64,000 bases of DNA from contig JAUVZL010000007.1 of assembly GCA_030602565.1 (NCBI GenBank), positions 761-64,760 of the forward strand, read 5' to 3'. Every line of letters starts with the position of its first letter. Position 1 is the stretch's first letter. Shown here in pieces: positions 5,336 to 32,336 of this stretch. A program made the translations under genes and the position numbers. The notes under the pieces were generated by a model. It did no database searches. It saw only the letters and a program-made list of their open reading frames with translations, and was not told where the DNA came from. This DNA is from Candidatus Stahliibacteriota bacterium. Its GTDB lineage: Bacteria; Hydrothermota; Tepidihabitantia; SM23-42.

Positions 5336-5347
5336 TAATAAGGTAGC

Positions 5348-5419
5348 CCCTCGATTAACTTGGGACACTGAATTTTCAAGCAAAGAAGTCCCTCGATTAA
5401 CTCGGGACACTAAATTTTG
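5348..5419. repeat. two 31-bp direct repeats (CCCTCGATTAACTYGGGACACTRAATTTT), period 41 bp, between sigma and anti-sigma genes
   Basis: 5348-5378 and 5389-5419, 2 mismatches; each contains GTCCC-N11-GGGAC inverted arms; related copy 6121-6142. Confidence 0.8.
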
Positions 5420-5967: not shown

Positions 5968-6354
5968 TAAAAGAAAACATTGTAGTTGTCTGATTTATCA
6001 GACATTGCCCGATGAATCCCGCTCCTTCATAAGGGGCGTGGATGAATCGGGCGACTACCAGGAACTAAGTTCCAAGAACATAATTACTTAATAACTGAAT
6101 GATGCTAAGCATAGAAGTGATCCCTCGACTTGCTCGGGATGGAAATGATCCACGCACTTTCATCAAAAGTGCGGGATGGAATGGATTCTTCGAATGGAAT
6201 AATTCGAAATATTCCAGCGTAGCTCCCTTCCAGTACTGTGTACTTCTTTCCAGCCAATGGCTCCTTTCCAGCCGAAGGTCTCGTCGAAGATATCGAACGG
6301 CGTGAGATGAGTTTTTCGAGAGGCAGTGCCATTTCTTCTTGTTTCTTGGAATTT

Positions 6355-17335: not shown

Positions 17336-17409
17336 GGGCCTGTAGCTCAGTTGGTTAGAGCAGCTGACTCATAATCAGCGGGTCGGGGGTTCAAGTCCCT
17401 CCGGGCCCA
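17336..17409 (+). tRNA. tRNA-Met (anticodon CAT), elongator-type (or tRNA-Ile2 if lysidinylated)
   Basis: cloverleaf folded by hand: acceptor GGGCCTG/CGGGCCC, D-arm GCTCAGTTGGTTAGAGC, anticodon stem GCTGA/TCAGC loop CTCATAA, T-arm GGGGG-TTCAAGT-CCCTC; lacks initiator 3xGC anticodon stem. Confidence 0.85.
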
Positions 17410-17568: not shown

Positions 17569-17961
17569 ATGAAAGTAACCAAGAAGAATATAGAAAAGCA
17601 TTTATCTAAATGGCAAGTTAAACTCCAGTTACGGGATTGGGATATATCTGTTAAGATTATACGCACAAGGTGGCGCAAATCAGGTGATATAAAGGTAGAT
17701 TTGGAAAATAGAAAAGCAACGCTTCTATTAAATCATAAACCCAAATGCCTGAATCTTGAAGAAATAATTGTGCATGAGTTATTACACATCAAGTTATATG
17801 GTTTGGATCAAATGATTGAGGATTTAATTGACATTCTGTATGGTAAGCGGAAGACAAAGAAACGACAGTTTGCATGGAATCAATTTATGTCGCTGCTTGA
17901 AACTACTGTTGAGGATTTGACAAAAGGATATCTTTATCATACAAATAACTCAAATAACTAA
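17569..17961 (+). CDS. small hypothetical protein with HExxH motif (HELLH)
   Basis: 130 aa; VHELLHIKL; SD AGGAG 4 nt upstream. Confidence 0.4.
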   Translation: MKVTKKNIEKHLSKWQVKLQLRDWDISVKIIRTRWRKSGDIKVDLENRKATLLLNHKPKCLNLEEIIVHELLHIKLYGLDQMIEDLIDILYGKRKTKKRQFAWNQFMSLLETTVEDLTKGYLYHTNNSNN

Positions 17962-17964
17962 TTC

Positions 17965-18528: not shown

Positions 18529-18543
18529 CATGCGATCAGATTG
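18525..18543. repeat. junction motif copy 1: CTGACATGCGATCAGATTG (includes stop TGA of GNAT gene)
   Basis: identical 15-nt core ACATGCGATCAGATT shared with 4 downstream junctions; following frame gives MRSDCKDCGNI* mini-ORF. Confidence 0.85.
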
Positions 18544-18549
18544 TAAGGA

Positions 18550-19743: not shown

Positions 19744-19744
19744 T

Positions 19745-20575
19745 ATGCAAGCGAACAGTAATAGCGAAAAGAGTAAAGTCATAATGATGCTGAAGAGGAT
19801 TTTTGGTATACTGCTTGGCTTAATGATAAGTGCCATTGGTATGATTGTACTAGGGAATGAAAAATCGCTATTAGGATGGTTTTTCATGTGGTATCTGCCC
19901 TTGTTCTTAGGAGGAATTATTGCAGGCTACTTTGCACACGATAAAGGGTGGATTTCAGGTTTTATAATTGCTATGATTTGGGCAAGTAGCTCGGTATTTA
20001 CTGATCTAAGTGGCAAAACCCCAATGATTTTTGTTCTCTGGCATACAATGGGATTACCAGTTGGTGCTGCAAGTGGATATTTTGGTCAGTTCTTAGCACG
20101 AATGATCTCGGCAAAAATGCAGAGAAAAATTACCGCCGTAATTGTAGGCTCATTTGTTGCATTTGCATTATCAATGATATTGATTTGTCTTTTCGGTAAT
20201 GTAGGCAAAACGTGTTCATATAATGGAGGTCAGTTTTGGTTGAAAGACTTGATAAATAATTGTCTACCATTGCTTATTGGGGGTATTTTTGCAGGTATTA
20301 TTGCTCAACGACATGGCTGGGTCTGTGCTTTTCTCAGTTGGCTTTTCTTCCAAGCATTTACTATTGTAATCTTACTTATGATAGGACTTGGCAAACCAAT
20401 CATTTCCTCATTTGCCACATATGAGTGGTCATTTATTGCCAGAACGATGTCTCGTCTTATTTCTACATTGATTCCCGCTTGGTGGTTATATGCAATCTCG
20501 TTGTTTTCCGCTGTCATTGGTGGATATCTTGGACAGCTTTTGGTACAGAAATATCATAAAAGAATTCATAGCTAA
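19745..20575 (+). CDS. polytopic membrane protein, hypothetical
   Basis: multiple hydrophobic helices; ATG 19745 preceded by GGAGG. Confidence 0.5.
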   Translation: MQANSNSEKSKVIMMLKRIFGILLGLMISAIGMIVLGNEKSLLGWFFMWYLPLFLGGIIAGYFAHDKGWISGFIIAMIWASSSVFTDLSGKTPMIFVLWHTMGLPVGAASGYFGQFLARMISAKMQRKITAVIVGSFVAFALSMILICLFGNVGKTCSYNGGQFWLKDLINNCLPLLIGGIFAGIIAQRHGWVCAFLSWLFFQAFTIVILLMIGLGKPIISSFATYEWSFIARTMSRLISTLIPAWWLYAISLFSAVIGGYLGQLLVQKYHKRIHS

Positions 20576-20591
20576 CATGCGATCAGATTGG
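20572..20591. repeat. junction motif copy 2: CTAACATGCGATCAGATTGG
   Basis: stop TAA of upstream gene, 1 nt, ATG of next gene (MRSDW...). Confidence 0.9.
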
Positions 20592-21506
20592 TCTAAGAAA
20601 TACTGGAAAAATTTTTTGATTGAACAACGTAAATACCAATGGTTTGAAGATACAGTGGAAAAACTTGCTGATTGGATGCACTTAGAACACGGAATGGTTG
20701 TAGTCGATGTTGGATGTGGTTTGGGACAGTTGGGCCTGTTATACTGGCCTCACTTCGGCAGACAGGGACGATACATAGGAGTAGATCTTTCATATAAGTT
20801 GCTCCGGGATGCCAAAAAGGCTGCAAAAAACTGGATCAAGAAAGGTAAGTCATATTTTATAACAGGGGATGCTTACAAATTACCTTTCCCCGATGCCTTT
20901 GCGGACTGCGTTATGTGTCAGACCCTTTTTTATCACCAAAGAACTCCACAAATTGCACTAAGTGAGATGGTTCGTATAGCAAAACCTGGCGGTTTTATTG
21001 TATGTAAAGACCTTGATTATTTATCAACGTTTCTGGCAAAGGATTTCACATCACTTCCTGAATTTACGCTCAAGGAACAACTGCTTTCCGCGAAGGTTCT
21101 TTTGGTTTCACATAAGGGTAAAATAAAACTGGGCAGAGGAGATAACAGCATCGGTCGGAAAATTCCTATGATGATGAAAGAAGCAGGATTGGTCGATATA
21201 GATATAAAGAACAACGATCTTGTCTATTTTTTACAACCACCTTATGAAAGTCCACGTCAACAATATTATATCAGCATGTTAAAAAAGCGACTTAGACGAG
21301 AAAAAGATAATCTAACTTGGTGGAGGCAAGCAGAGGAAGAATTCGTAGCAGGAGGCGGTGAGAAAAATGATTTTATTCGTTATAAGAGGGTGGTGAATAA
21401 ACACAAATCATTATACAGAAAGCAGATAAAGAATGGTGAGTATTATCGCTGCACCCCAGGATATTTCTTGGTTACGATAGGTAGAAAACCAAAGAAAAGA
21501 AAATAA
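20577..21506 (+). CDS. class I SAM-dependent methyltransferase
   Basis: VVDVGCGLGQLG motif I; starts MRSDWSKKYW at junction motif. Confidence 0.75.
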   Translation: MRSDWSKKYWKNFLIEQRKYQWFEDTVEKLADWMHLEHGMVVVDVGCGLGQLGLLYWPHFGRQGRYIGVDLSYKLLRDAKKAAKNWIKKGKSYFITGDAYKLPFPDAFADCVMCQTLFYHQRTPQIALSEMVRIAKPGGFIVCKDLDYLSTFLAKDFTSLPEFTLKEQLLSAKVLLVSHKGKIKLGRGDNSIGRKIPMMMKEAGLVDIDIKNNDLVYFLQPPYESPRQQYYISMLKKRLRREKDNLTWWRQAEEEFVAGGGEKNDFIRYKRVVNKHKSLYRKQIKNGEYYRCTPGYFLVTIGRKPKKRK

Positions 21507-21527
21507 CTAACATGCGATCAGATTGGG
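21507..21527. repeat. junction motif copy 3: CTAACATGCGATCAGATTGGG
   Basis: read directly. Confidence 0.9.
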
Positions 21528-21712
21528 TAGCTATTTTAATGTGGATTTTTTTCGTGATGCCGATGGTAATTCTGTTAACGATAATCGCCCCGAGTCTGTT
21601 TGCGGATAAAGAAAGAGTATTTATCATACAGGGAATCATACTTTTCGTTGGAATTGCTATAATAATATTCAACATTATAAGAATAATTAAATCATTGAAG
21701 GATAAAGACTAA
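21512..21712 (+). CDS. small membrane protein (66 aa), starts MRSDW
   Basis: two hydrophobic helices. Confidence 0.35.
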   Translation: MRSDWVAILMWIFFVMPMVILLTIIAPSLFADKERVFIIQGIILFVGIAIIIFNIIRIIKSLKDKD

Positions 21713-21729
21713 CATGCGATCAGATTGGG
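21709..21729. repeat. junction motif copy 4: CTAACATGCGATCAGATTGGG (preceded by AAAGACT as in copy 1)
   Basis: read directly. Confidence 0.9.
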
Positions 21730-22289
21730 AACGCTTTTTCGATACTTTTCCGGAATTTGATTTCGAAGGGTATAAACTACGGGCTTTCCGGAAAAACGAT
21801 GCCGACGACCTATACAAATGTTTATCCGATCCTGACGTTACTGAATTAACGAGCTTTGAACTAAATTCATTTGACCAAATCACAAAACTGATCGAAGCCA
21901 GCAGCATCAAATTCAATAAAAAACATGGTGTAAATTGGGCAATAGTTGATAAAAAGACCGATCGGGTAATAGGTTTCTATGGTTTAGTATGGATCGACCA
22001 ACATAATTCCAGAACAGAAGTTGGTTTTATCTTGGCAAAGGAATATTGGAATAAGGGAATAACCACACAAGTTCTTAAACGGATTTTGGAATTGGTATTT
22101 ACCGAACTTGGTGTAAACAGCGTTGAAGCTACTGCAATGGTTGGTAATAATGCCTCAGCGCGAGTCTTGGAGAAATGCGGTTTCAAGAAAGAAGGCATAT
22201 TAAGAGAGTTGCGATATTGCAGAGGAAAATACCATGATTTTTGGAAATTCTCCCTATTACAGAAGGAGTGGGTACATGATAAGAACTAA
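21714..22289 (+). CDS. GNAT family N-acetyltransferase, starts MRSDW
   Basis: 191 aa; RimL-like pattern, NKGITTQVLK region. Confidence 0.75.
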   Translation: MRSDWERFFDTFPEFDFEGYKLRAFRKNDADDLYKCLSDPDVTELTSFELNSFDQITKLIEASSIKFNKKHGVNWAIVDKKTDRVIGFYGLVWIDQHNSRTEVGFILAKEYWNKGITTQVLKRILELVFTELGVNSVEATAMVGNNASARVLEKCGFKKEGILRELRYCRGKYHDFWKFSLLQKEWVHDKN

Positions 22290-22299
22290 CATGCGATCA
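22286..22299. repeat. junction motif copy 5 (partial): CTAACATGCGATCA then diverges; 17-codon leader ORF ends ATGA-overlapping next start
   Basis: read directly. Confidence 0.8.
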
Positions 22300-22340
22300 A
22301 AAAAGACAGAATGGTTTAAGGCCTATATGACGAATTTAGG

Positions 22341-23036
22341 ATGAAGAGGACATTTGGTGGTGTTTCTGATGAGAGAACAAGACAGGATGTTGATTTCATA
22401 ATTGATGTTCTTAACTTATCTGAAGGGGCAAAAATTCTTGAATTATTCTGTGGTATAGGAAGACACTCAATTGAACTCGCGAAGAGAGGTTATAAACCTG
22501 TTGGGATTGAATATAATCGAGAATATCTTAAAATCGCACAAAGCAAGTCGCAAGAGAAGAATGTTCATGTAAAATTTATTCAAGGCGATGTTAGAGAAAT
22601 TGAATTTGGTATTAATTTTGATGCTGCTATTATAATGTATCAGAGTTTTGGATACTTCAGCGATGAAGAAGACAAAATGGTTTTACAAAAAATCTATAAA
22701 GCCTTGAGACAAAACGGTAAATTTTTAATTGAAATTCTTAGCAAGGATTGGATTTTGAACAACTTTGTAGAGAATGAAGTGACTGAGGTAAATGGTATAA
22801 ACATAGATCAAACAAGAACATTCGATGCTACAACAAGCCGAGTGAATTTTACCATTAATAGACATTTAGAAGAAGGAGTGGTTACTAAAAAAGGTTCATG
22901 GAGACTTTATTCTTCATCTGAAATTATCAGCAAATTGGACAATATTGGATTCAAGTATGTTGCAGGTTACAATGATTTGGATAAAACTCCACTAACAAAG
23001 AATACAAGACTCATGCGTCTGGTGTTCGAAAAATGA
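22341..23036 (+). CDS. class I SAM-dependent methyltransferase
   Basis: ILELFCGIGRHS motif I. Confidence 0.75.
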   Translation: MKRTFGGVSDERTRQDVDFIIDVLNLSEGAKILELFCGIGRHSIELAKRGYKPVGIEYNREYLKIAQSKSQEKNVHVKFIQGDVREIEFGINFDAAIIMYQSFGYFSDEEDKMVLQKIYKALRQNGKFLIEILSKDWILNNFVENEVTEVNGINIDQTRTFDATTSRVNFTINRHLEEGVVTKKGSWRLYSSSEIISKLDNIGFKYVAGYNDLDKTPLTKNTRLMRLVFEK

Positions 23037-23659
23037 GTAGGTATAAAGCCATAATTTTCGATTGTGGCGGTGTTATCTTCACTTGTTCATTCGATAAAGC
23101 ACTCAACTATTGGGCAATGGTGAGTGGCAAGGATATTAATGAAATCAAAAATAAGTTTGATTTCGACGAAATATTTCAAGGACTTGAGAGAGGTGAAATT
23201 AATTCTACCGCGTTCAGAAAACATGCTTTGAGTAAACTAGGGTTAAAAATTAGTGATGAGAAATTTGACAAAGGATGGAATAGTATATATTTAGATTTAG
23301 TCCCTGGTATCAAACAGTTGCTCCAAGAATTAAAGCAAAAGCATAGACTGGTTGCCTTAACAAACACAAATGAAATACATGCAAAAAAATGGAAAATTAC
23401 GTTTGCATCTATTCTCAATTATTTTGAGAAAGTGTTCAGTTCCCACGAGATCCATGCACGAAAGCCAGAACGAAAAGCATATAACACCGTATTGAATTAT
23501 CTCCGATTAGAACCCAATGAAGTAGTATTCTTAGACGATAATCCTGAATACGTTCAAGCTGCCTCTGAGATGAATATTGCAAGTATTCACGTTACGTCAT
23601 TCAAGCAAATGGTTGAAGACCTAAGTAAGCTTGGCGTGGAGGTTAAGAGTGCCGTTTGA
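23033..23659 (+). CDS. HAD-superfamily hydrolase (variant motif I DCGGV)
   Basis: IIFDCGGVIF, later LTNTNE and FLDDN motifs. Confidence 0.6.
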   Translation: MSRYKAIIFDCGGVIFTCSFDKALNYWAMVSGKDINEIKNKFDFDEIFQGLERGEINSTAFRKHALSKLGLKISDEKFDKGWNSIYLDLVPGIKQLLQELKQKHRLVALTNTNEIHAKKWKITFASILNYFEKVFSSHEIHARKPERKAYNTVLNYLRLEPNEVVFLDDNPEYVQAASEMNIASIHVTSFKQMVEDLSKLGVEVKSAV

Positions 23660-23714
23660 GGTGTTAAGGGACATCTGTCCTTGATATTATTCCAGATTGA
23701 CATTATAATGTTAT

Positions 23715-24398
23715 ATGCACGATGAATCACAACGGGAGTTATTTGCTTATTATAATGAGAGAGCACAGGAATACGACGATGTTTATTGCGGCAAAGGTAC
23801 CGCAATTCCACATCAACATCTATATAAGAAAGATGCAGCGAAAATCAGCAATATCATTTCGTCATTTGGTAAAGGGCACATTATAGATATAGGTTGTGGT
23901 ACAGGTTATTGGCTACCACATTATGCGCGAAACTGTGAGAAAATAACATTGATTGATGTTTCGGAAAAAATGATTGCAGAGTGCAGGAATAAATGCGACA
24001 AACTCGGTATTACAAACAAATGTCATTGTGTAAAAGGTGATTTCTTTGAACTTGATTTCAAAGACCACCTATTTGATAGTGTACTTGTTGGATTTCTTCT
24101 AAGCCACTTGACGCAGAAAACAGAAAAAGCCTTCTTTGAGAAACTCAGACGTATCACTGTAACAAAAGCACAAGTGTTTTTTATCGATACTCTATGGAAC
24201 AAACTACGCCAGCAATATAGAAAAAAAGAAGGAATTCACGAACGCTTTCTAAATGATGGACGTAAATTCAGGATATATAAAAGATATTTCACTAAATCTG
24301 ATATCCATGAAATTTTCAAGAACAACGCCCTCAAACTGATTTCATTCTCTCAAGGACATGTATTTTTTGCAGCAACTGGAGTGATTGAGGAGCAGTAG
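23715..24398 (+). CDS. class I SAM-dependent methyltransferase
   Basis: IIDIGCGTGYW motif I. Confidence 0.7.
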   Translation: MHDESQRELFAYYNERAQEYDDVYCGKGTAIPHQHLYKKDAAKISNIISSFGKGHIIDIGCGTGYWLPHYARNCEKITLIDVSEKMIAECRNKCDKLGITNKCHCVKGDFFELDFKDHLFDSVLVGFLLSHLTQKTEKAFFEKLRRITVTKAQVFFIDTLWNKLRQQYRKKEGIHERFLNDGRKFRIYKRYFTKSDIHEIFKNNALKLISFSQGHVFFAATGVIEEQ

Positions 24399-24415
24399 AC
24401 TGTCTCTTCTTAGCT

Positions 24416-24536
24416 AACTCACCAGGATGTCCGAGATATTGAGTTCATCGAAATGCATTAGTATCGCCTGTCCCGAGTAATATCGAGGGGAGTAAACCGA
24501 GATGTCGAAGATCTCGAGTAAATCGAGAGGTTATAG
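24416..24536. repeat. short copy of composite dispersed repeat (left end AACTCACCAGGATGTC, internal GTATCGCCTGTCCCGAGTAATATCGAGGGGAGTA and CCGAGATGTCGAAGATCTCGAG blocks)
   Basis: blocks identical to 28282-28437. Confidence 0.8.
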
Positions 24537-24600
24537 GTAAGAAACAGTCAAAATATTGAGAGTGTTGTTTGAAGTGGTAAGGAATTTTGAACGAAAAGGC

Positions 24601-24629
24601 TTGAATTTACATGCTACCTGTATTATAAT
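24601..24629 (+). promoter_or_regulatory. sigma70 promoter TTGAAT-17-TATAAT
   Basis: read directly; precedes ATG 24646. Confidence 0.5.
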
Positions 24630-24645
24630 CAAGCGCAGGAAAAAG

Positions 24646-25896
24646 ATGAAGACAAAAACTATTATTCTAATCGCGATTTTTGTATATATAACGGCACCAG
24701 GATGTGAAAAAAAAGAACAGACTGCACTAAAGAGAAATCCAAAGGCACAAGCTTTATATGAAAAAATGATTCAGGTGATGCGTGATGCTCAGACAATGTA
24801 CTACGAGAGCGCATATGAGTGCGAGGAATTAGAAGGAGAAACTATACCAAAAAGCAATTATAGAATCTGGTTAAAAAAGCCAAATTTCGCTCGTGTAGAA
24901 GTTGAACAAGAGGGTGACCTGAGAGGGGTCATCATTGGCGACGGTAAATGTTGGTGGTCCTACTGGCCAAATAAACGCCCTTTTTTTCCATGGGAAGACT
25001 CAATAGAATATGTGAAAACGTGTTCAACATCATACACGAAAGAACATCTTTCATTAGGTCTATACTCTATTGCCCATTTGATAGGCAACTTACGAATAAA
25101 CATGGGTATGCCAATATTACAGCCAAGTGTTTTCTATAATTATCCAGACCATCTTGTTAAACATGTAGACAGCGTCATATGTTTAGGAACTGAAAAAATA
25201 GGTGAACAAGAGTATGATGTCATCGAAGTGAGCTACATGAATCATCAACGTAGTAAATACTACTGGTTATCTAAGGTTGATCACTTACCGAGGAAGCTAA
25301 AACAGGTAATTCGGACTGCTGAGACTTATGTATCACATGAGCTATGGTCTTATATAGCTATTGATATGGAAATACCTGATGAAAAATTTACTTGGCAACC
25401 ACCTGAACATTGGCAAGAGTACGGCTTTCCGCAAAAGCGAGATGGGTTATTGAACCCAGGCACAGAAGCGCCAGATTTCGCATGTAAGGGGGTAGATGGT
25501 AGTACTATTAAGCTTTCAGATTACCGCGGCAAGATTATTATAATAAACTTCTGGCGTGTAGGGTGTCCGCCGTGTCGTAAAGGCATACCGTATCTTGAAG
25601 AATTATACAGAAAATATAAGGATAAAGGTTTAGTAGTTATCGGATTCAATTGTGATGATGACTTAAAAATCACTTTGTGTCTGCTAAAAGAACATTCAGT
25701 TACTTATCCTAATATTGTAGATGCCTCTGGTGAAGCAAGGGATGTATGCTATAGACAATATCAAACTATAAGAGGAAAATCCGCTGTGCCATTGCATTAC
25801 TTGATAGACAAAGAAGGTAGGGTCATTGATGCTTGGTATGGATTGTGGGGTGAGGAGTTACTCTACCAGGCATTGTTAAAAGCAGGATTGAAATAA
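24646..25896 (+). CDS. TlpA/ResA-family thiol-disulfide oxidoreductase lipoprotein with N-terminal LolA-like domain
   Basis: signal+lipobox (ITAPGC); thioredoxin CxxC active site WRVGCPPCRKG; ORF-track start 24556 rejected (lies upstream of promoter). Confidence 0.7.
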   Translation: MKTKTIILIAIFVYITAPGCEKKEQTALKRNPKAQALYEKMIQVMRDAQTMYYESAYECEELEGETIPKSNYRIWLKKPNFARVEVEQEGDLRGVIIGDGKCWWSYWPNKRPFFPWEDSIEYVKTCSTSYTKEHLSLGLYSIAHLIGNLRINMGMPILQPSVFYNYPDHLVKHVDSVICLGTEKIGEQEYDVIEVSYMNHQRSKYYWLSKVDHLPRKLKQVIRTAETYVSHELWSYIAIDMEIPDEKFTWQPPEHWQEYGFPQKRDGLLNPGTEAPDFACKGVDGSTIKLSDYRGKIIIINFWRVGCPPCRKGIPYLEELYRKYKDKGLVVIGFNCDDDLKITLCLLKEHSVTYPNIVDASGEARDVCYRQYQTIRGKSAVPLHYLIDKEGRVIDAWYGLWGEELLYQALLKAGLK

Positions 25897-25927
25897 TGAC
25901 TATTACAAAATCTAAGCACACAATGAC

Positions 25928-25942
25928 CTACGGACGAGCACC
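25928..25942. repeat. 15-bp direct repeat CTACGGACGAGCACC (copy 1), inside hairpin CCTACGGAC..GTCCGTAGG
   Basis: identical copy at 27114-27128 on the other side of pilT. Confidence 0.8.
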
Positions 25943-26002
25943 ATTACAAATCAATTGTAACGGCGCAGGCAGTCCGTAGGTTTAGTTGAATCAAATTTAA
26001 AC

Positions 26003-26020
26003 GGTCGGTGAAAGCCGACC
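26003..26020 (-). terminator. hairpin GGTCGG-TGAAAG-CCGACC followed on minus strand by GUUUAAAUUUGAUU; candidate pilT terminator
   Basis: read directly. Confidence 0.4.
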
Positions 26021-26032
26021 CTATAACTCGTA

Positions 26033-27067
26033 TTATGGATAATTTAGAAGGATAGCGTCAGCTTGATCTTCAGTGATAAGTTTTTCCTCAAGCAGTTTAG
26101 TAATGGATTGACGCATAGTAATCATCCCTTCCCTACCACCAGTCGCCATTACATTCCTCAAGAAATATGCTCCCCTCTTCCGAAATATATGCCGCGTCGC
26201 GCCAGTTGCAACCATAATCTCACAAGCCACGCGCTTTTCACCTGAGATTGTGGGAATAAGTTCTTGATGAATTATTGCTTGGACTGAATCTGCCAACAAA
26301 TACCGGATGTGCATTTCGAAATCAGTTGAACCATAGCTGACCAGGCGTTCGATAACTTTGTCGATCGATATTGTGTGCAAAGTCGAAAGGACCAGAATAC
26401 CAGTTGATGCAGCAATCAAGGCAATTTTAAACGTCTCAAAATCCCGCATTTCACCAATCGATATAACGTCCGGGTTCTGACGGAGCGCGGCTCGTAAACC
26501 TTGAGCAAAAGTTTTCGTGTCTCGACCAACTTCTCGCTGCCGAACTACACTCTTGATATTTCTATGTACATATTCAATCGGATCTTCTATAGTTACAATA
26601 TGTTTTTTATAATTTCGATTTATTTCATGGATCACAGCCGCCATTGTCGTGGTTTTCCCTTGACTTGTGGCACCGGTAATCAGAACAAGACCCTTAGTTA
26701 AGGTTGTGAACTTTTTTATAACTGATGGTAGATGTAATTCGTCAATGGTTTGAGGATTATCGATCAAAATCCTCAAGACCGATCCGATGTTGCCATCGTT
26801 AAAGCTAATATTAATTCGATACCGATTCTGATGGTATGCAAGCATAAAATCAATATCTAACTCATCCTCAAAAGTTTTTATCTGATCATTGTTCATTAAA
26901 TCGTAGGATAATTTTTTGGATACATCGGAAGTCAAAACGGTTTCATTCATTGGGATTAAATCATCACCAATCCTGAAAAGAATTGGCGCATGTGCACAAA
27001 TATGAATATCTGTCGCATTTTTCTGTTTTGCTATTTCGAATATTTTCTTAAGCTCATCGGATAACAT
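26033..27067 (-). CDS. pilT: type IV pilus twitching-motility ATPase PilT
   Basis: 344 aa; Walker A GATSQGKTTT, PilT-family Asp/His boxes, typical length. Confidence 0.85.
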   Translation of the reverse strand: MLSDELKKIFEIAKQKNATDIHICAHAPILFRIGDDLIPMNETVLTSDVSKKLSYDLMNNDQIKTFEDELDIDFMLAYHQNRYRINISFNDGNIGSVLRILIDNPQTIDELHLPSVIKKFTTLTKGLVLITGATSQGKTTTMAAVIHEINRNYKKHIVTIEDPIEYVHRNIKSVVRQREVGRDTKTFAQGLRAALRQNPDVISIGEMRDFETFKIALIAASTGILVLSTLHTISIDKVIERLVSYGSTDFEMHIRYLLADSVQAIIHQELIPTISGEKRVACEIMVATGATRHIFRKRGAYFLRNVMATGGREGMITMRQSITKLLEEKLITEDQADAILLNYP

Positions 27068-27073
27068 TATAAT

Positions 27074-27101
27074 ATTCTAATCTGTTAGATTGCAATGTCA
27101 A
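27074..27101 (-). promoter_or_regulatory. sigma70 promoter TTGACA-16-TAGAAT ending 6 nt before pilT ATG (leaderless candidate)
   Basis: reverse complement of 27065-27110 read directly. Confidence 0.45.
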
Positions 27102-27113
27102 GATGCCCATACT

Positions 27114-27128
27114 CTACGGACGAGCACC
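27114..27128. repeat. 15-bp direct repeat CTACGGACGAGCACC (copy 2)
   Basis: identical to 25928-25942. Confidence 0.8.
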
Positions 27129-27217
27129 CCGTCGCTCTACCTTGACAAAGTCGATTTTTCATTATAATGTTACAGACAAGTTTGTGGTACAAACCTATCT
27201 GGAGAAAGGAGGTTATA

Positions 27218-27838
27218 ATGGAACAGAGCATTAACATCGAAGAAGTAAAGCGAAAGACGTATCGTGCCATTCAGCAGGATGGACTAGACAAAATCCTTCT
27301 GGGCATTTTGTTTGGTCTCTGCTCCCTCATCTATGTTAGTATGGTTTGGATAGCTGTTGTTGCGTGCAGCCCAGTATTAGCACAGTTTGCGAGAGAAATA
27401 ATAAGGAAAAAGCTTACCTATAATAGGATAGGCTATGTGGAGTTCTCCAAGAGCCTTGATAAAAAAGAAACACTATTCACTCTTTTGACTGTTACAATAT
27501 TCCTATCGCTCCTGGTGATAGTGAACCGTACGGGATTCAAAGCACTCTTACCTCTTCTCGTTGTTATCATTCCATCCGGTATATACTTCATGATTACCCA
27601 CTATCGATCGAGGGCTAAAATAGATTATATGATTACAATTCTTTTCCTGCTCAGTGGAGTCATTGGACTTTTCTTTACGCTACACGGGTATGATACTACC
27701 ACCGTATTGGTTGTCCAAATCAGCGGATTAGGTGTAGTATTACTCACGATTGGTATTGTTCAATTCATTCGTTTTCTCCGCAAGTACCCTAAACAAACTG
27801 TGGAGGCATCTAATGTCTTCAAAGAAAAAAGAAAATAA
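27218..27838 (+). CDS. membrane protein, hypothetical
   Basis: ATG 27218 after AAAGGAGG; 4-5 TM helices. Confidence 0.45.
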   Translation: MEQSINIEEVKRKTYRAIQQDGLDKILLGILFGLCSLIYVSMVWIAVVACSPVLAQFAREIIRKKLTYNRIGYVEFSKSLDKKETLFTLLTVTIFLSLLVIVNRTGFKALLPLLVVIIPSGIYFMITHYRSRAKIDYMITILFLLSGVIGLFFTLHGYDTTTVLVVQISGLGVVLLTIGIVQFIRFLRKYPKQTVEASNVFKEKRK

Positions 27839-28142
27839 AGATTTCCAGCCGATAACTGATATAGATCGAATTATTCATGAACCAGCGCGTCTCATGATCT
27901 TGGCTTTCCTGTACGTCGTTGAAAGGGCGGATTTTATCTTCTTGATGCGTCAGACCAATCTAACTAAAGGTAATCTGTCTTCTCATCTGAGTAAGCTGGA
28001 GGCTGCAGGTTATATCGATATCGAAAAGAAGTTTGTAAGCAAAATCCCGCGGACGCTTCTCCGTCTCACCAAGAGAGGCAGAAAAGCATTTCAGATCTAC
28101 CGACAGAACATGAAAAATGTATTCGAGAATCTGCCTGAATGA
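27813..28142 (+). CDS. winged-helix transcriptional regulator (HTH_34-like)
   Basis: IHEPARLMILAFL...LSSHLSKLEAAGYI pattern; overlaps upstream membrane gene. Confidence 0.55.
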   Translation: MSSKKKENKDFQPITDIDRIIHEPARLMILAFLYVVERADFIFLMRQTNLTKGNLSSHLSKLEAAGYIDIEKKFVSKIPRTLLRLTKRGRKAFQIYRQNMKNVFENLPE

Positions 28143-28281
28143 CAGATAGGCTCAGCGATTAAGATCGTAATATTATGGTTATTGCATTATAACGCACTGT
28201 GAATTAATGGTCCGCTACTTTACATCAGATGGGAATAGTCAAAATACCCCAGCGCATGATAAGTCCATTGTTTAACTCGTC

Positions 28282-28555
28282 CAACTCACCAGGATGTCGG
28301 AGATATCGTCGAAGATATCGAGGGTAATGAGATGAAGTATTTGAGATGCGTCAGTATCGAGTATCCCGAGATGTCGAAGATCTCGAGCACACCGAGAGGC
28401 ATCAGTATCGCCTGTCCCGAGTAATATCGAGGGGAGTATCCCGAGATGCTGAAAGTCCTGAGGAATCGAAGGGATTTGACCCCAATTTCTTCCCTTAGTA
28501 TCGAGAGAAGCCGAGATGAAGAATTGAAGGGACCTGATCCCCAACCTTTCCGCCA
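28282..28555. repeat. full-length composite dispersed repeat (MITE-like): left end CAACTCACCAGGATGTC, 8-bp-periodic TATCGAG/GTCCCGAG interior, right end tandem GAATCGAAGGGATTTGACCCCAATTTCTTCCC-like units
   Basis: fragments of same element at 24416-24536, 30322-30338 (left end only) and 31487-31576 (right end only). Confidence 0.8.
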
Positions 28556-28562
28556 CTCATTT

Positions 28563-28748
28563 TCATGGTTTTGGTATTTCTAACCTTCTGGTTATTTTAA
28601 TGACTAACTTTTTCGCAATTTCTGTGTGCCGTGGTATCGCTTCTATAATACCGTTCCTTGGATTCAACCAAAGAGAATGCTTAGTACCTTCGCGTTTCAA
28701 AATGCAACCATGACGACGAAGATGTCGCAATAATTTTATCCTTTTCAC
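28563..28748 (-). CDS. hicA: type II toxin HicA (mRNA interferase)
   Basis: 61 aa; LRHLRRHGCILKREGTKHSLW pattern of YcfA/HicA. Confidence 0.8.
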   Translation of the reverse strand: MKRIKLLRHLRRHGCILKREGTKHSLWLNPRNGIIEAIPRHTEIAKKLVIKITRRLEIPKP

Positions 28749-28961
28749 TTATATTGAAATTGTTTCTTTTATAGCCTTGGCTGGCATGCCTCTTAGTGAA
28801 TCCTCAAGACGGTCTTGTAGAATTAGTTTAATGGCTTCGGTCAAGTTTTTTCGACATTCTTCCAACGTGCACCCCTGACCATTTGCACCAGGAACTTCGG
28901 GACAGTAACCAATCCACCATTTACCGTCCTTTTCATAAATTGCATGAAATAGATTTGCCAT
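28749..28961 (-). CDS. hicB: HicB-family antitoxin
   Basis: 70 aa UPF0150/HicB-like; adjacent and co-directional with hicA. Confidence 0.65.
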   Translation of the reverse strand: MANLFHAIYEKDGKWWIGYCPEVPGANGQGCTLEECRKNLTEAIKLILQDRLEDSLRGMPAKAIKETISI

Positions 28962-29056
28962 CTTGCACCTCTTTTTTTCAAGAATTTTAAACCTTATTCC
29001 TCCTTCATTATATATGAAGTCAACTAAAAGTCAATAGACCGATTTGCACTAACTCT

Positions 29057-29096
29057 ATCACTGTCCCGCTCACGAGGACTCTTGGAGTAATCTGCT
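29057..29096. repeat. 40-bp exact repeat ATCACTGTCCCGCTCACGAGGACTCTTGGAGTAATCTGCT (copy 1)
   Basis: identical at 30393-30432; 16-bp partial reverse-complement copy at 48926-48941. Confidence 0.9.
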
Positions 29097-29193
29097 ATTT
29101 TTACCCCGTTAGATGACTGCTAAAGTGTCTTTTAGACACCTTAAATACTTGCGAGCAATTAACAATGTTTGACTGCCAATTTAATAAAGATTT

Positions 29194-29823
29194 CTAACGG
29201 GGTGAATCAGTGTCCCGAGTGTATCGAGAGAAGGTTGTCGAGGGGATTTTCTTTTTGTTAGTTTCATTTTTGTTTATTTTATATATTATGTGATAACGAT
29301 ACCATATGCCTCTTGTTTTTCTGAAACCTGCTTTCTCATAAACTCTTATTGCTGGTATATTTTCTTTATGGGGAGGGACTAGAAGGATATCAGCTTTTGT
29401 CTCGGAAAAAACGTATTGCACGATGGTTTTCATTACCTCGGTGCCGTACCCTTTATTCCAGTAAGTTTTGATTAACTTAACATCAGTCATTAGAGCAAGC
29501 TTATTTTTTGGAGCTTTATAGTTTGGACACGACCAGCCTGATCTTAATCTTCCCAACCCACTTTCTCCAATCCGCCCTTCTTTCTTAAGTTTAACAATAA
29601 AATGGATTTCAGTGTTACCATACTTTGTTATATTTTTTTTATATTTCTCAAACCATTTGCAGATTTGGGCGTAATTCCAGTTTTTTGCAAAGCCAGCGTA
29701 CCGCATAATTTCGGGATCATTCCAGAGTTTTAATAGAAACTTCAAATGTTGTTGAGTCATAGGATGGATCACTAGATGTCGTGTCTTTATAATTTGCCTT
29801 TTTTTCATATTTTGTACATTCAT
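29194..29823 (-). CDS. GNAT family N-acetyltransferase
   Basis: 209 aa; acetyl-CoA-binding-like region NKGYGTEVM. Confidence 0.7.
   Translation of the reverse strand: MNVQNMKKRQIIKTRHLVIHPMTQQHLKFLLKLWNDPEIMRYAGFAKNWNYAQICKWFEKYKKNITKYGNTEIHFIVKLKKEGRIGESGLGRLRSGWSCPNYKAPKNKLALMTDVKLIKTYWNKGYGTEVMKTIVQYVFSETKADILLVPPHKENIPAIRVYEKAGFRKTRGIWYRYHIIYKINKNETNKKKIPSTTFSRYTRDTDSPR
29209..29272. repeat. ~65-bp dispersed element GTGTCCCGAGTGTATCGAGAGAAGGTTGTCGAGGGGWTTTTCTTTTTGTTRGTTTCATTTYTG (copy 1)
   Basis: copies at 30622-30694 and partial 31367-31411. Confidence 0.85.
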
Positions 29824-30264
29824 TTATTCCTGAGATGGCTCATAGATTTTTTGACCGCCTGTCCAGCTGTCTCGCCATTCAATCTTGTTGATGTTGATTT
29901 TTAAAAGACAATATTCTTTAGACTCCGGACCATCTGGAAAATACTGTGACAAATCAAATGTTGCCAACTTCCATATTCTCCTTTTTTCTTCCATGTCTGG
30001 AATTATTTCAGCTTGACCGATGATAGTAGCAGCTTTGTCCCCACGGGGTTGTTCTGCAAAAGCAAGACAAATTTTGGGATTTTGCTGAATTTGCTTCACC
30101 TTTCTGGAAGTATTGAAAGTCGTTACCCAGACCGACAGATTGTCTTCAACTATTGGTGACACTGGACGAACTCTTGGTTGGTCTCCATCACAAGTGGCAA
30201 GATATGCATGGAGACAATTTTTTTTCATTATTTCTATTATTTTTTGTTTGTCAGATGAATTCAT
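29824..30264 (-). CDS. pyridoxamine 5'-phosphate oxidase-family (PNPOx-like/general stress protein 26) FMN-binding protein
   Basis: start at MNSSDK with strong SD AAAGGAGGTGG; split-barrel pattern. Confidence 0.65.
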   Translation of the reverse strand: MNSSDKQKIIEIMKKNCLHAYLATCDGDQPRVRPVSPIVEDNLSVWVTTFNTSRKVKQIQQNPKICLAFAEQPRGDKAATIIGQAEIIPDMEEKRRIWKLATFDLSQYFPDGPESKEYCLLKININKIEWRDSWTGGQKIYEPSQE

Positions 30265-30392
30265 TATCCACCTCCTTTTTTTCAAAGAGTATATTCTGAA
30301 GTTAACACATGTCAAGCCAATCCAACTCACCAGGATGTATCTCTACGAGATTCGATTACGGCGATAAACCAAATAAATTACATACCAGTGAT

Positions 30393-30432
30393 ATCACTGT
30401 CCCGCTCACGAGGACTCTTGGAGTAATCTGCT
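30393..30432. repeat. 40-bp exact repeat (copy 2)
   Basis: identical to 29057-29096. Confidence 0.9.
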
Positions 30433-30621
30433 CATAATCGCTGTCCCGCATAGCGTGGATCCTCGTCTTGTATGGCGGGATAATCATACGAGTCTACTCG
30501 TTGCATTTAATTATTGTTGTATCTGTAAATCACTGTCATCTGTTGTTAATCGCTGAAATTGACCCTAGGAGATAATGGCTGTCACGAATTTTTCTCAAAT
30601 CTATGATTTGATTGCAAAACT

Positions 30622-30694
30622 CAGTGTCCCGCCTGTCCCGAGTGTATCGAGAGAAGGTTGTCGAGGGGTTTTTCTTTTTGTTGGTTTCATTTCT
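30622..30694. repeat. ~65-bp dispersed element (copy 2, with extra GTCCCGCCT prefix)
   Basis: see 29209-29272. Confidence 0.85.
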
Positions 30695-31064
30695 GGGCTC
30701 CTTATATCTATTGGTTGCCGTAGGTCTCGTCGTAGATCTCGAAGTATTGAGAGGAGTGTATCGAGAGGCAATTTTTTCATAGACGGAGCAACCGTTTCTC
30801 CAAGTCTTAACAAGATGACACCATTTGCTTCTTTTGTAGCATTTGTCAAACGTTTAGATTTGACGCCATTTGTTTACAAAACAGTATAATCAAAGATAAT
30901 AAAGTCATATTGTCATGCACCGTCCCTACTTCCCAACAGTTAATTTTAGACAACCAGGCGGACGAGGATCGGTCTCAAGATTCTTTATCGAACGTAAAAT
31001 TCGAATAGCATCATTAGGGGAGAGTCTATAGATGAATTTTTCGGCTGATGGTTTTATTAAAACT

Positions 31065-31277
31065 CTATAATTCAAGTTTAGTATTATGCAATTTTTCGTA
31101 GCGTTCTACTACATCAGAAACTGAAATTGGTTGCCCTTTCTCTTCTTTTGCTTTCTTTAAGTCCTCAAGATCCTCAAGGATCTCAATTAATTCAGTGAAA
31201 GCTGGATTAGATTTTGCCCATTCCCAAATCTCTTTTGAAATAATAACTGAATCCTTTTCTATGTTGACTTTCGACAT
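31065..31277 (-). CDS. small hypothetical protein (70 aa), only ORF in a repeat-rich 1.5-kb stretch
   Basis: acidic helical protein; no family assigned. Confidence 0.3.
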   Translation of the reverse strand: MSKVNIEKDSVIISKEIWEWAKSNPAFTELIEILEDLEDLKKAKEEKGQPISVSDVVERYEKLHNTKLEL

Positions 31278-31486
31278 AAGATCCTCCTTATATTCAGTAT
31301 ACGATTATATGTCTAATTCACATTCTGTCAACATAAATGGTGCACGTTTTTATCTGAGTTCTGCAAAGCGAGACGATGAGGGGTTTTTCTTTTTGTTAGT
31401 TTCATTTTTGGCTGCACAAAATTTACTGTCCTCGTTTTCTGTAAAAGAAACGGGACTTCATCAATTTGTGAATTGTGAAGCTGAAA

Positions 31487-31576
31487 GTATCGCCTGTCCC
31501 GAGATGTCGAAGATCTCGCCTGTATCGAGTTTATCGAGATGAGTGAATCGAAGGGATTTGACCCCAATTTCTCTCC
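31487..31576. repeat. right-end fragment of composite dispersed repeat
   Basis: AGTATCGCCTGTCCCGAGATGTCGAAGATCTCG...GAATCGAAGGGATTTGACCCCAATTTCTCTCC. Confidence 0.8.
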
Positions 31577-31579
31577 TGG

Positions 31580-31702
31580 ATACCCTGGTCCCCTGATCAA
31601 GTCAGAGGATGCCAGGGTATGACCCCCGTACGATTAACATCCTACGGGACAGGCGGGATAAATAAAGCGAAAAGACTGAATACCCTGGTCAAGCCAGGGT
31701 AT
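31580..31702. repeat. two hairpins with identical 9-bp stems ATACCCTGG/CCAGGGTAT (31580-31620 and 31680-31702)
   Basis: second has loop TCAAG; both followed by TATGAC. Confidence 0.7.
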
Positions 31703-31889
31703 GACAATAAGTATGCTATAGGGTCAAATATGCCTTCGTTGGAAACTACGGCATACATGCCTACCCTCTCCCTCAATGGGAGAGGGAATTTTTTATTTGA
31801 CTTTTTATCGATATCCTATATAATCAAAACGCAATGAGATTTCAGGGGATAGGACACGAGAGCAGTGCAAGTGATTTATTCTTAATGAT

Positions 31890-32336
31890 ATGCAAAACTA
31901 TTTGCCTATGAAGTGGTCTGTCCATCCAGCAAAAGATAACTTTATAAAGACTATTTTCAGTCTTATTTTCATCGTTGGTTTCCTCGTGTTTGTATCAATT
32001 TTCTACGGAGTTTTCTGGGCTATCCTGGGTTCCATAATTCTTTTTGTCAGTTTGTATTCCTACTTTTTTCCATCGCATTATGAAGTGAATCAGGAGCAGG
32101 TGATTATCAGGAATATATTCCTTACCCAACGCAGGCGCCTGGCCGAGTTCAAGAAAGTCTACCGAGGTAAAAATGGGATACTACTCAGTCCGTTCAAAAG
32201 AAAAACCTTTTTGAACCAGTTTCGCGGTGTTTTTCTTTTGTTGCCGAGAGAACGACAGGAAATTGAGGACTACGTAAGGGGGCTGGTTGAAAGTGATGAA
32301 ATGACCGAGGACGAGCATTCGAAGAAAGATGGTTAG
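31890..32336 (+). CDS. membrane protein, hypothetical
   Basis: two long hydrophobic helices. Confidence 0.4.
   Translation: MQNYLPMKWSVHPAKDNFIKTIFSLIFIVGFLVFVSIFYGVFWAILGSIILFVSLYSYFFPSHYEVNQEQVIIRNIFLTQRRRLAEFKKVYRGKNGILLSPFKRKTFLNQFRGVFLLLPRERQEIEDYVRGLVESDEMTEDEHSKKDG

What the first reader, a model, noticed from the sequence alone, without database searches (positions are those of the whole stretch)
28282..28555. Composite MITE-like dispersed repeat with conserved termini, present as full, shortened and split copies
The full copy is about 274 bp (28282-28555). A 120-bp internally deleted copy lies at 24416-24536 with blocks identical over 20-33 bp. The isolated left end (CCAACTCACCAGGATGT) is at 30322-30338 and the isolated right end (…GAATCGAAGGGATTTGACCCCAATTTCTCTCC) at 31487-31576, so the two ends bracket about 1.1 kb that contains other repeat families and a 70-aa ORF. 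The element has no coding capacity (ORF 28272-28556 is repeat-encoded). Its interior is 8-bp periodic (GAGATGTC GAAGATCT CGAG…).
Basis: seen in the sequence. Interest (0 to 1): 0.55.

Follow-up and report, generated by a model that had tools for sequence, protein, structure and literature searches.

The report
Cassette-junction repeats in a variable island
The reported "MITE" is a real non-coding repeat in an uncultured WOR-3 bacterium, but it behaves as a 17-18 bp junction site followed by an unstable ~9-bp-period array, marking where gene cassettes are gained and lost in a tRNA-linked variable island.

Summary
The repeat is real: exact blocks of 15-34 bp recur at 24416, 28283, 30324 and 31487, far beyond chance. 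The MITE reading is not supported. There are no terminal inverted repeats, no target-site duplication and no fold better than shuffles. The interior period is 9 bp, not 8. Copies were found only inside one variable island (about 17.53-31.9 kb) between tRNA-Met and the RecJ-like gene. More distant relatives have no island there.

Strain comparisons show three parts:
- **Junction core.** TCCAACTCACCAGGATGT is met with at least seven left flanks and five right flanks.
- **CGAG-module array.** It shrinks, grows or is replaced between strains (0, about 25, about 100 or about 165 bp).
- **hicA-linked block.** A fixed block travels with the hicBA toxin-antitoxin pair.

The "split copy" is refuted. 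Two independent assemblies join the flank left of 28280 directly to the flank right of 30338 through a single core. The window therefore carries a 2,041-bp gene-bearing segment bounded by identical 18-bp cores.

Best explanation: recombination at this core gains or loses cassettes, and the array changes by slippage or unequal exchange. The recombinase is unknown and none is encoded in the window. This is a new variant of known intergenic mosaic or junction repeats, of moderate interest.

The parts
28280..28297 (+). Junction core ("left end"), copy B: TCCAACTCACCAGGATGT
   Evidence: It is exact at three window sites. Homology to other strains breaks exactly here.
28298..28462 (+). Variable array of CGAG modules with a ~9-bp period (includes 28366-28385, 28405-28421 and 28422-28438)
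   Evidence: Autocorrelation peaks at lag 9. About 105 bp of it is missing in L028, and it is replaced by other sequence in L032-L035.
28463..28495 (+). Unit 1: GAATCGAAGGGATTTGACCCCAATTTCT ("right-end" motif)
   Evidence: It is repeated at 31545. Homology to L032 ends at 28496, just beside it.
28496..28555 (+). Unit 2, a diverged copy of unit 1; the fixed 3' flank of hicA
   Evidence: It is kept next to hicA in every relative, whatever the genomic context.
28563..28961 (-). hicA (28563-28748) and hicB (28749-28961), a toxin-antitoxin pair that travels with unit 2
   Evidence: Pfam matches are HicA_toxin and UPF0150/HicB_lk. The block 28496-29272 is conserved in L032-L036 at another locus.
24416..24430 (+). 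Junction core, copy A (AACTCACCAGGATGT, preceded by GCT instead of TCC)
   Evidence: L069 has the core at the orthologous place.
24431..24549 (+). Short CGAG-module array plus right end GTTATAGGTAAGAAACAGTC
   Evidence: It is 84/105 identical to 28370-28472. The L069 allele has only about 25 bp between the core and TTATAGACAAC. L047 and L046 have none.
30321..30338 (+). Junction core, copy C, identical 18-mer; 7 bp from the -35 box of the PNPOx promoter on the - strand
   Evidence: (family D12).
28298..30338 (.). 2,041-bp segment (array, hicBA, GNAT, PNPOx, one core) present in the window and absent in L061/L063
   Evidence: L061 and L063 read 27140-28297 followed directly by the 30339-30512-like sequence.
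30339..30512 (+). Sequence natively attached to the core in relatives; holds the 41-bp repeat 30392-30432 (also at 29056-29096)
   Evidence: (family D11).
31487..31577 (+). Separate patch of the same modules (31487, 31499, 31545)
   Evidence: Relatives L058-L062 carry a recombinant of 31509-31541 and 30729-30768 at this place.
6271..6325 (+). Weak partial copy (43/56 identical to 28298-28349) outside the island
   Evidence: (family D9).
5340..5418 (-). Two tandem copies of a GTCCCGAGTTAATCGAGGG-type module in inverted orientation
   Evidence: (family D13).
17336..17409 (+). tRNA-Met, the left landmark of the variable island (about 17530-31900)
   Evidence: In L048-L050 the tRNA lies about 130 bp from the ORF136/RecJ pair.

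Best explanation
The feature is not one transposable unit. It is a compound found at cassette boundaries in a strain-variable island of a candidate division WOR-3 bacterium, inserted between tRNA-Met and the RecJ-like gene.

**Three parts**
- **Core.** The 17-18 bp core (T)CCAACTCACCAGGATGT is the point where DNA segments are joined. Each minus-strand cassette ends with one core, and all cores point the same way.
- **Array.** Beside the core lies a run of short CGAG-containing modules with a ~9-bp period. It expands, contracts and recombines between strains through its own short direct repeats.
- **hicA block.** The last about 60 bp is simply the fixed 3' flank of the hicBA cassette.

**Proposed mechanism**
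Recombination between two cores integrates or deletes the intervening genes, most simply through a circular intermediate carrying one core. This is comparable to cassette traffic at a recombination site.

**Shown versus inferred**
- Shown: homology breakpoints lie at the core, and the array differs in length between alleles.
- Inferred: the reaction is enzyme-catalysed rather than short-homology recombination, the enzyme's identity, and any role of the array as accessory binding sites.
For: **Source and island**
- Close homologues of window proteins are named candidate division WOR-3, and the window lies on a 67,189-bp NCBI contig.
- More distant relatives L048-L050 and L056 have no island next to the RecJ-like gene; in L048 the sequence shows tRNA-Met about 130 bp from the ORF136/RecJ-like pair.
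- L052 and L057 keep a 17-nt tRNA 3' remnant there.

**Breakpoints at the core**
- L061 and L063 are two independent assemblies. They read window 27140-28297, then the 30339-30512-like sequence. The window therefore has 2,041 extra bp bounded by identical 18-mers.
- The core is joined to other left partners in L058-L060 and L062 (HAD side), L028 (a 195-aa gene), L032-L035 (tRNA side) and L047 (PilT promoter).
- It is joined to five different right partners.
- All three window cores are on the + strand.

**Array length alleles**
- L028 lacks about 105 bp of the array.
- L069 has about 25 bp where the window has about 100.
- L047 and L046 have none.
- L032-L035 have a different interior that includes a MITE with true inverted ends.

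**Linkage and other properties**
- Block 28496-29272 (hicBA plus unit 2) is conserved at a different locus in L032-L036.
- No structure, no inverted ends, no coding potential.
- A second core, TAACATGCGATCAGATTGG, behaves the same way in the plus-strand part of the island.
Against: - No recombinase or transposase was found among the window ORFs scanned against Pfam or NCBIfam (about 40 of the 62 ORFs of at least 120 aa plus three shorter island ORFs, including those of the island from 17569 to 32336).
- No circular form or empty and filled sites within one sample could be looked for.
- An 18-bp identity can support rare homology-driven deletion without any dedicated enzyme.
- Only about a dozen independent core contexts are available, all from metagenome assemblies. 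Such assemblies tend to break or mis-join at repeats. L025, L029 and L030 end inside the repeat.
- The window's own join at 30321-30338 has no second assembly behind it.
- Cassette content between cores is mixed in orientation (24.4-28.3 kb), unlike tidy integron cassettes.
- A genome-wide count was not possible.
Confidence: 0.55

Rival explanations
1. It is a MITE or other non-autonomous transposable element. A defined unit from the left end to the right end is moved by a transposase acting in trans, and the copies are full, internally deleted or interrupted.
For: - It is small, non-coding and multi-copy, with a conserved left end and length variants.
- A compact form is repeated at three further loci in L046 and L047 (core plus TTRTAGACAACAARCAGG, about 33 bp).
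- Relatives' islands carry an IS110 transposase and a Y1 transposase-like gene.
Against: - No terminal inverted repeats were found.
- No target-site duplication is present at either copy end.
- No hairpin potential was found.
- The interior is not a constant unit. It differs in order and content between copies.
- The "interrupted" copy is refuted.
- Copies are confined to the island.
- No transposase is encoded in the window.
Confidence: 0.12
2. It is a REP/BIME-like mosaic mobilised by a REP-associated tyrosine transposase (RAYT). Short motifs would be copied by a Y1 HUH enzyme and combined into mosaics.
For: - Short motifs combine into mosaics in intergenic DNA.
- A 281-aa Y1_Tnp gene lies in the island of L058-L060. 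Its best NCBIfam match is REP_Tyr_transpos.
- The motif TGTCCCG recurs nine times on one strand in 2.3 kb of island spacers.
Against: - The modules are direct repeats, not palindromes.
- No fold is better than shuffles.
- The Y1 match scores 47 bits against a cut-off of 80.
- That gene is flanked by a different inverted-repeat family (ACAGGYTGACCGAGAAT), which is absent from the window.
- Copy number is low in the DNA available.
Confidence: 0.1
3. It is passive debris. The modules would be leftovers of local segmental duplications and deletions in a fast-changing region, with no site-specific role. The core would be just one more shared scrap.
For: - All strong copies lie within 7 kb, on one strand.
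- Another island repeat (29237-29272, 30660-30695, 31375-31410) turns out to be the 3' end of a GNAT gene copied around.
- Truncated parE and altered GNAT ends show repeated deletion.
Against: - The core is kept at 14-16 of 17 positions in most other contexts, though two of the L046/L047 copies are diverged (11-12 of 15), while both flanks are unrelated there.
- It sits exactly at homology breakpoints in at least four independent comparisons. Random debris does not predict this.
Confidence: 0.18
4. The ~9-bp-period array is a row of binding sites for a DNA-binding protein, for example a ribbon-helix-helix or winged-helix regulator or a recombination accessory factor. It would act in regulation or as a centromere-like site.
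For: - There is significant 9-bp periodicity of a CGAG core.
- The sequence is unstructured and strongly one-stranded in orientation.
- An HTH_34 regulator gene lies directly upstream of copy B.
- From general knowledge, tandem 7-9 bp operator or centromere arrays are known for RHH proteins.
Against: - The array is dispensable. It is absent or replaced in close strains while the neighbouring genes stay.
- In L061 the HTH_34 gene is followed by the core without the array.
- No binding data exist.
Confidence: 0.05

Closest known systems
Integron gene cassettes and attC sites, including CALIN arrays without an integrase (Cury et al. 2016, PMC4889954)
   Same: - There is one recurrent site per cassette, and all sites are in one orientation.
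- Cassettes are present or absent between strains exactly at the site.
- Toxin-antitoxin and small accessory genes are the cargo.
- No recombinase lies nearby, as in CALIN.
   Different: - attC sites are 57-141 bp imperfect palindromes with paired R and L boxes. Here there is a 17-18 bp core, no GTTRRRY partner and no fold.
- The cassettes here carry their own promoters and mixed gene orientations.
- No IntI was seen.
Asymmetric sfx sites of the R64 shufflon recombinase Rci (PMC11852207)
   Same: About 19 conserved bp (core plus one arm) lie next to a non-conserved arm. Multiple copies border exchangeable DNA segments.
   Different: - sfx sites are inverted and give inversions. The cores here are direct and are associated with insertion or deletion.
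- There is no sequence similarity.
- No Rci-like gene was found.
STAR elements of Staphylococcus aureus, interspersed intergenic direct repeats (PMC3532100)
   Same: - Both are intergenic, made of direct repeats and non-palindromic.
- Loci expand and contract between strains.
- Function and spread are unknown.
   Different: - STAR is a 14-bp GC-rich unit spaced by at least 40 bp and scattered over the genome.
- Here the units have a ~9-bp period, are anchored to a fixed core and are confined to one island.
- The sequences are unrelated.
REP/BIME mosaics with RAYT transposases (PMC2817692)
   Same: Short intergenic motifs combine into mosaics. A Y1 transposase-like gene is present in related islands.
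   Different: - The units are not palindromic.
- Copy number is low.
- The Y1 gene scores below the family cut-off and is not flanked by these modules.
MITEs (Delihas 2011, PMC3184786)
   Same: It is under 300 bp, non-coding and intergenic, with several copies and length variants.
   Different: - It has no inverted ends and no target-site duplication.
- There is no constant core sequence.
- A true MITE with 17-bp inverted ends exists in relatives and looks quite different.
tRNA-linked genomic islands built by serial integration
   Same: The island sits at the 3' side of tRNA-Met. Relatives show an empty site and a partial tRNA repeat.
   Different: The internal junction core is not derived from the tRNA, with 6-7 edits over 22 nt. 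No integrase is present in the window.

Membership tests
MITE | Terminal inverted repeats | tested here: not met
   No inverted arms were found at the ends of 28282-28555. Only an 11-nt pair lies outside the ends of the 24.4-kb copy, and it is not shared with L069.
MITE | Target-site duplication flanking each copy | tested here: not met
   Flanks of the copies at 24416 and 28282 share nothing. The only flanking direct repeat is the core itself around a 2-kb gene block.
MITE | Many dispersed copies of near-uniform length | tested here: inconclusive
   Copies lie only in the island within 380 kb of lineage DNA, and their lengths run from 33 to 274 bp. No complete genome was available. Collection scans found nothing further.
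REP/BIME | Imperfect palindromic units that form stem-loops | tested here: not met
   Z-scores are -0.95 to +1.71 for the window elements and their subregions. The four compact forms in relatives give -1.97 to +1.10, with no shared hairpin.
REP/BIME | Cognate RAYT gene flanked by the repeats | tested here: not met
   None is in the window. The Y1 gene of relatives scores 47 bits against a cut-off of 80 and is flanked by another repeat family.
Integron attC / CALIN | Palindromic site with R''/L''...L'/R' boxes (RYYYAAC ... GTTRRRY) | tested here: not met
   GTCCAAC fits RYYYAAC, but there is no GTT triplet anywhere in 28283-28555 and no hairpin. The attC covariance model itself was not available.
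Integron attC / CALIN | Cassettes present or absent exactly at the site, with sites co-oriented | tested here: met
   A 2,041-bp block is bounded by identical cores and absent in L061/L063. All cores are on the + strand.
Integron attC / CALIN | Integron integrase (IntI) nearby or in the genome | tested here: inconclusive
   It is absent from the window and the fetched loci. The rest of the genome was not seen.
Interspersed intergenic direct repeats (STAR-like) | Short direct repeats in intergenic DNA whose number varies between strains | tested here: met
   There is a 9-bp periodicity. Alleles hold 0, about 25, about 100 or about 165 bp. The STAR consensus sequence itself is absent.
tRNA-derived att repeats of an integrative island | The repeat is a copy of the tRNA 3' end | tested here: not met
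   The best match of the right-end motif to tRNA-Met has 6-7 edits in 22 nt, no better than random sites.
Site-specific recombination site (generic) | Conserved core with unrelated flanks on both sides in different genomes | tested here: met
   At least seven left flanks and five right flanks were seen.
Site-specific recombination site (generic) | A cognate recombinase and demonstrated exchange at the core | not testable with these tools
   This needs read-level circle or empty-site junctions, or a biochemical assay.

The most novel reading that the evidence does not exclude
This WOR-3 lineage may run an integron-like cassette system that uses short, unstructured, asymmetric junction cores instead of folded attC sites. 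Two cores are seen: CCAACTCACCAGGATGT in the minus-strand array and TAACATGCGATCAGATTGG in the plus-strand array. Their sequences share the ends ACAT...TTGG when read in gene orientation. A recombinase encoded elsewhere in the genome would serve them, and the ~9-bp CGAG array would act as accessory binding sites.
Probability: 0.15. Interest if true: 0.75.

Novelty: new variant of a known kind. Interest (0 to 1): 0.4.

Why it matters
If the core is a true recombination site, it offers a handle on how an uncultured phylum shuffles accessory genes next to a tRNA gene. The cargo includes toxin-antitoxin pairs, acetyltransferases and methyltransferases. No recognisable integron, integrase or transposase lies in the neighbourhood.

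It also explains why assemblies of this lineage break at these places. It warns against calling any multi-copy intergenic block a MITE. If the core is only recombination debris, the finding is ordinary.

Tried and rejected
- **Genome-wide count.** All are single (two in L010) chance matches in genomes of 53-73% G+C (all but one at least 62%), with no flanking similarity. The metagenome scan with ATCGAAGGGATTTGACCCCAA found only one contig, a 98%-identical strain. Viral-contig scans gave nothing or chance hits.
- **Protein search with the repeat-encoded ORF.** Nothing was found.
- **Known RNA families.** None was found in 24.3-31.9 kb at E up to 5, apart from two sub-threshold chance hits. Only tRNA-Met was found in the whole window.
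- **Terminator role.** No terminator-like site lies in the elements.
- **tRNA-derived origin of the right-end motif.** Rejected.
- **attC reading.** Rejected: no R' box and no fold.
- **Hairpin in the compact 33-bp form.** Not consistent across copies.
- **Plasmid and phage collections.** No similarity.
- **Similarity between the two junction cores.** They match at 9 of 17 positions, which I judged not significant on its own.

Full report
**Observation**

- AACTCACCAGGATGT occurs exactly at 24416, 28283 and 30324. Chance expectation with up to two mismatches is 0.12.
- CCGAGATGTCGAAGATCTCG occurs exactly at 24497, 28366 and 31499, with chance expectation 0.00.
- A 34-mer (GTATCGCCTGTCCCGAG plus TAATATCGAGGGGAGTA) is exact at 24461 and 28405.
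- GAATCGAAGGGATTTGACCCCAATTTCT is exact at 28463 and 31545, with a diverged second unit at 28521.
- The 24.4-kb copy aligns to 28370-28472 at 84 of 105 positions.
- All copies are on the + strand.

The stated 8-bp periodicity is wrong. Autocorrelation peaks at lag 9 (0.42, against 0.23 at lag 8), and none of 2000 shuffles reaches that value at any lag.

ORF 28272-28556 has no relative in the large protein collection. This supports the reading that it is repeat-encoded and non-coding.

**Anatomy**

- The element has no terminal inverted repeats.
- It has no flanking target duplication.
- Neither strand folds better than shuffled sequence. Z-scores are -0.95 and +0.41 for the whole element and -0.64 to +1.71 for parts.
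- No known RNA family matches, and no terminator-like site lies in it.
- The copies are mosaics of the same short modules in different orders and numbers, so there is no single consensus unit.
- Related modules occur next to other island repeats (29211, 30626), weakly at 6271-6325, and inverted at 5340-5418.
- The heptamer TGTCCCG occurs ten times on the + strand of the window. Nine of these lie in island spacers.

**Context**

Exact matches and close homologues of window proteins come from a 67,189-bp NCBI contig and carry names such as candidate division WOR-3 bacterium.

The copies lie in a run of accessory genes between tRNA-Met (17336-17409) and a RecJ-like gene. These genes include GNATs, methyltransferases, a HAD hydrolase, a redoxin, PilT, an HTH_34 regulator, hicBA, PNPOx and an orphan antitoxin.
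- More distant relatives (about 80% identity; L048-L050, L056) carry an anti-sigma gene cluster next to the RecJ-like gene pair instead. In L048 the sequence shows the same tRNA-Met about 130 bp upstream of that pair.
- Window positions about 17,530 to 31,900 are therefore an insertion relative to them.
- L052 and L057 keep a 17-nt remnant of the tRNA 3' end at that place.
- No integrase or transposase is encoded among the window ORFs I scanned, about 40 of the 62 ORFs of at least 120 aa plus three shorter island ORFs, including those of the island from 17569 to 32336.

**Strain comparisons, which decide the matter**

*The "split copy".* L061 and L063 are two independent assemblies about 95% identical to the window.
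- They read window 27140-28297 (membrane protein, HTH_34, spacer, core). They then run straight into the sequence that in the window follows 30338, and on to the ParE/antitoxin pair.
- Relative to them, the window holds 2,041 extra bp (28298-30338). This block contains the module array, hicBA, GNAT and PNPOx, and is bounded by identical 18-mers TCCAACTCACCAGGATGT.
- This refutes the idea that 30322 and 31576 are the ends of one interrupted element.

*Other partners of the core.*
- In L058-L060 and L062 the core (one mismatch) is joined instead to the sequence downstream of the HAD gene.
- In L028, a strain about 98% identical to the window in shared genes, it is joined to a different gene on the left. 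The array next to it lacks about 105 bp.
- In L032-L035 the hicBA block (window 28496-29272) sits beside tRNA-Met at another locus. It has the same core and the same unit 2. The interior is different and contains a genuine small inverted-repeat element.

*Length alleles at the 24.4-kb locus.*
- L069 is the orthologous locus and has only about 25 bp between the core and TTATAGACAAC.
- L047 (twice) and L046 have the core fused directly to that sequence.

Altogether the core is seen with at least seven unrelated left flanks and five right flanks.

**Interpretation**

The "composite element" resolves into three things:
- a conserved junction core;
- an unstable array of ~9-bp-period CGAG modules beside it;
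- the fixed 3' flank of the hicBA cassette.

In gene orientation, the two minus-strand cassettes seen (hicBA and ParE/antitoxin) each end with one core.

Exchange between two cores accounts for the observed gain or loss of gene blocks. Most simply, a circle carrying one core integrates, or the reverse deletion occurs.

Array length changes fit slippage or unequal exchange at its own short repeats. One example is GATGTC at the L069/window difference.

What is shown is the coincidence of breakpoints with the core and the array length alleles. What is inferred is whether a dedicated recombinase does this. Short-homology recombination at an 18-bp identity cannot be excluded.

**Rivals**

- **MITE or other transposable unit.** It fails on inverted ends, duplications, uniformity and the refuted split copy.
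- **REP/BIME with a RAYT.** Islands of relatives do hold a 281-aa Y1 transposase-like gene and an IS110 RNA-guided transposase. However, the modules are not palindromic. The Y1 match is below the family cut-off (47 against 80 bits). That gene is flanked by another repeat family that is absent from the window.
- **Passive duplication debris.** Another island repeat proves to be a copied 3' end of a GNAT gene. Debris does not explain why the core is conserved with unrelated flanks in several other contexts, including one more distant relative, or why it lies exactly at breakpoints.
- **Protein-binding array.** This is possible for the 9-bp repeats, but the array is dispensable between close strains.

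**Comparison with known systems**

- It works most like cassette traffic at a recombination site, as with integron cassettes or CALIN arrays (PMC4889954). It is not an attC, having no paired boxes and no fold.
- A precedent for a short, one-sided conserved site is the shufflon sfx site, which has 19 conserved bp and one variable arm (PMC11852207).
- The array part resembles STAR-type intergenic direct repeats that expand and contract (PMC3532100).
- It is not a member of any of these families by sequence or defining structure.

**Limits**

- The genome of this lineage is not in the species-genome collection in searchable form, and the metagenome scan found one contig only. No genome-wide count was possible.
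- All comparisons rest on metagenome assemblies, which break at these repeats. L025, L029 and L030 end inside them.
- The window's own join at 30321-30338 lacks an independent assembly.

**Verdict**

- This is a real, lineage-restricted repeat that was misread as a MITE.
- It is best described as junction cores plus an unstable array in a tRNA-linked cassette island.
- It is a new variant of known kinds, of moderate interest. There is a modest chance that it marks an undescribed cassette-exchange system.

Noticed in passing
window 18514-22306 (cores at 18526, 20573, 21508, 21710, degenerate 22287); L066 9997, 10574, 11758, 14313; L061 3056, 3258: A second junction core, TAACATGCGATCAGATTGG, lies between tightly packed plus-strand accessory genes. 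The GNAT unit 21708-22297 runs from core to core and has other neighbours in L066. A formyltransferase unit present in L066 and L069 is absent from the window. The ATG inside the core is not always a real start codon.
   Followed up: partly
window 2440-2505, 5917-5963, 7880-7905: These are tandem 8-bp arrays (GGAGTAYC and variants, up to 8 copies). Each follows a shared head, ACTGAAGTGAGT or ACTCAACTGTGT, in the spacers next to genes. They form a separate repeat family of unknown role.
   Followed up: no
window 25928-25942 and 27114-27128: The 15-bp direct repeat CTACGGACGAGCACC lies on both sides of the PilT unit (about 25970-27140). That unit occurs in other gene contexts in L046 and L047 and is absent from L061. 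L058 and L028 carry an uninterrupted form of the flanking motif after the HAD gene.
   Followed up: partly
window 29237-29272, 30660-30695, 31375-31410: This repeat is the reverse complement of the 3' end of the GNAT gene as found in L067 and L068 (coding INKNETNKKK). The window's GNAT (29194-29823) is 209 aa against 194 aa in relatives, because it reads into this junction.
   Followed up: yes
window 30934-31277: The 70-aa ORF (31065-31277, minus strand) is the antitoxin of a ParE pair in relatives. The window keeps only about 140 nt of parE, so the antitoxin is orphaned.
   Followed up: partly
window 29056-29096 and 30392-30432: A perfect 41-bp direct repeat (TATCACTGTCCCGCTCACGAGGACTCTTGGAGTAATCTGCT) lies upstream of hicB and of the PNPOx unit. 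It is also conserved upstream of hicB in all relatives.
   Followed up: partly
window 31580-31702; L026 39-330; L059 1-340: Further small repeat families lie at the island's right edge. They include the inverted pairs ATACCCTGG/CCAGGGTAT and the hairpin CCCGTACGATTAACATCCTACGGG followed by ACAGGCGGGAT. Copy number differs between strains.
   Followed up: no
L059 2578-3423 and 3701-4945; L058 7780-8625; L032 10546-10725: Islands of relatives hold a 281-aa Y1 transposase-like gene and an IS110-family RNA-guided transposase. They also hold a 130-190 bp element with 17-bp inverted ends, ACAGGYTGACCGAGAAT. None of these is present in the window.
   Followed up: partly
L028 6240-6400 compared with window 17414-17525 and 31890-31910: The roughly 110-bp segment that follows tRNA-Met in the window sits directly upstream of the ORF148 homologue in L028 and L052. 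The island therefore lies on different sides of this segment in different strains.
   Followed up: partly
window 45788-45962 and 53038-53098: An 84-88 bp tandem duplication lies in the spacer after 45673. A 22-bp tandem repeat (2.7 copies, GCTGGGAATGACAAGAGGGGAT) lies at 53038.
   Followed up: no
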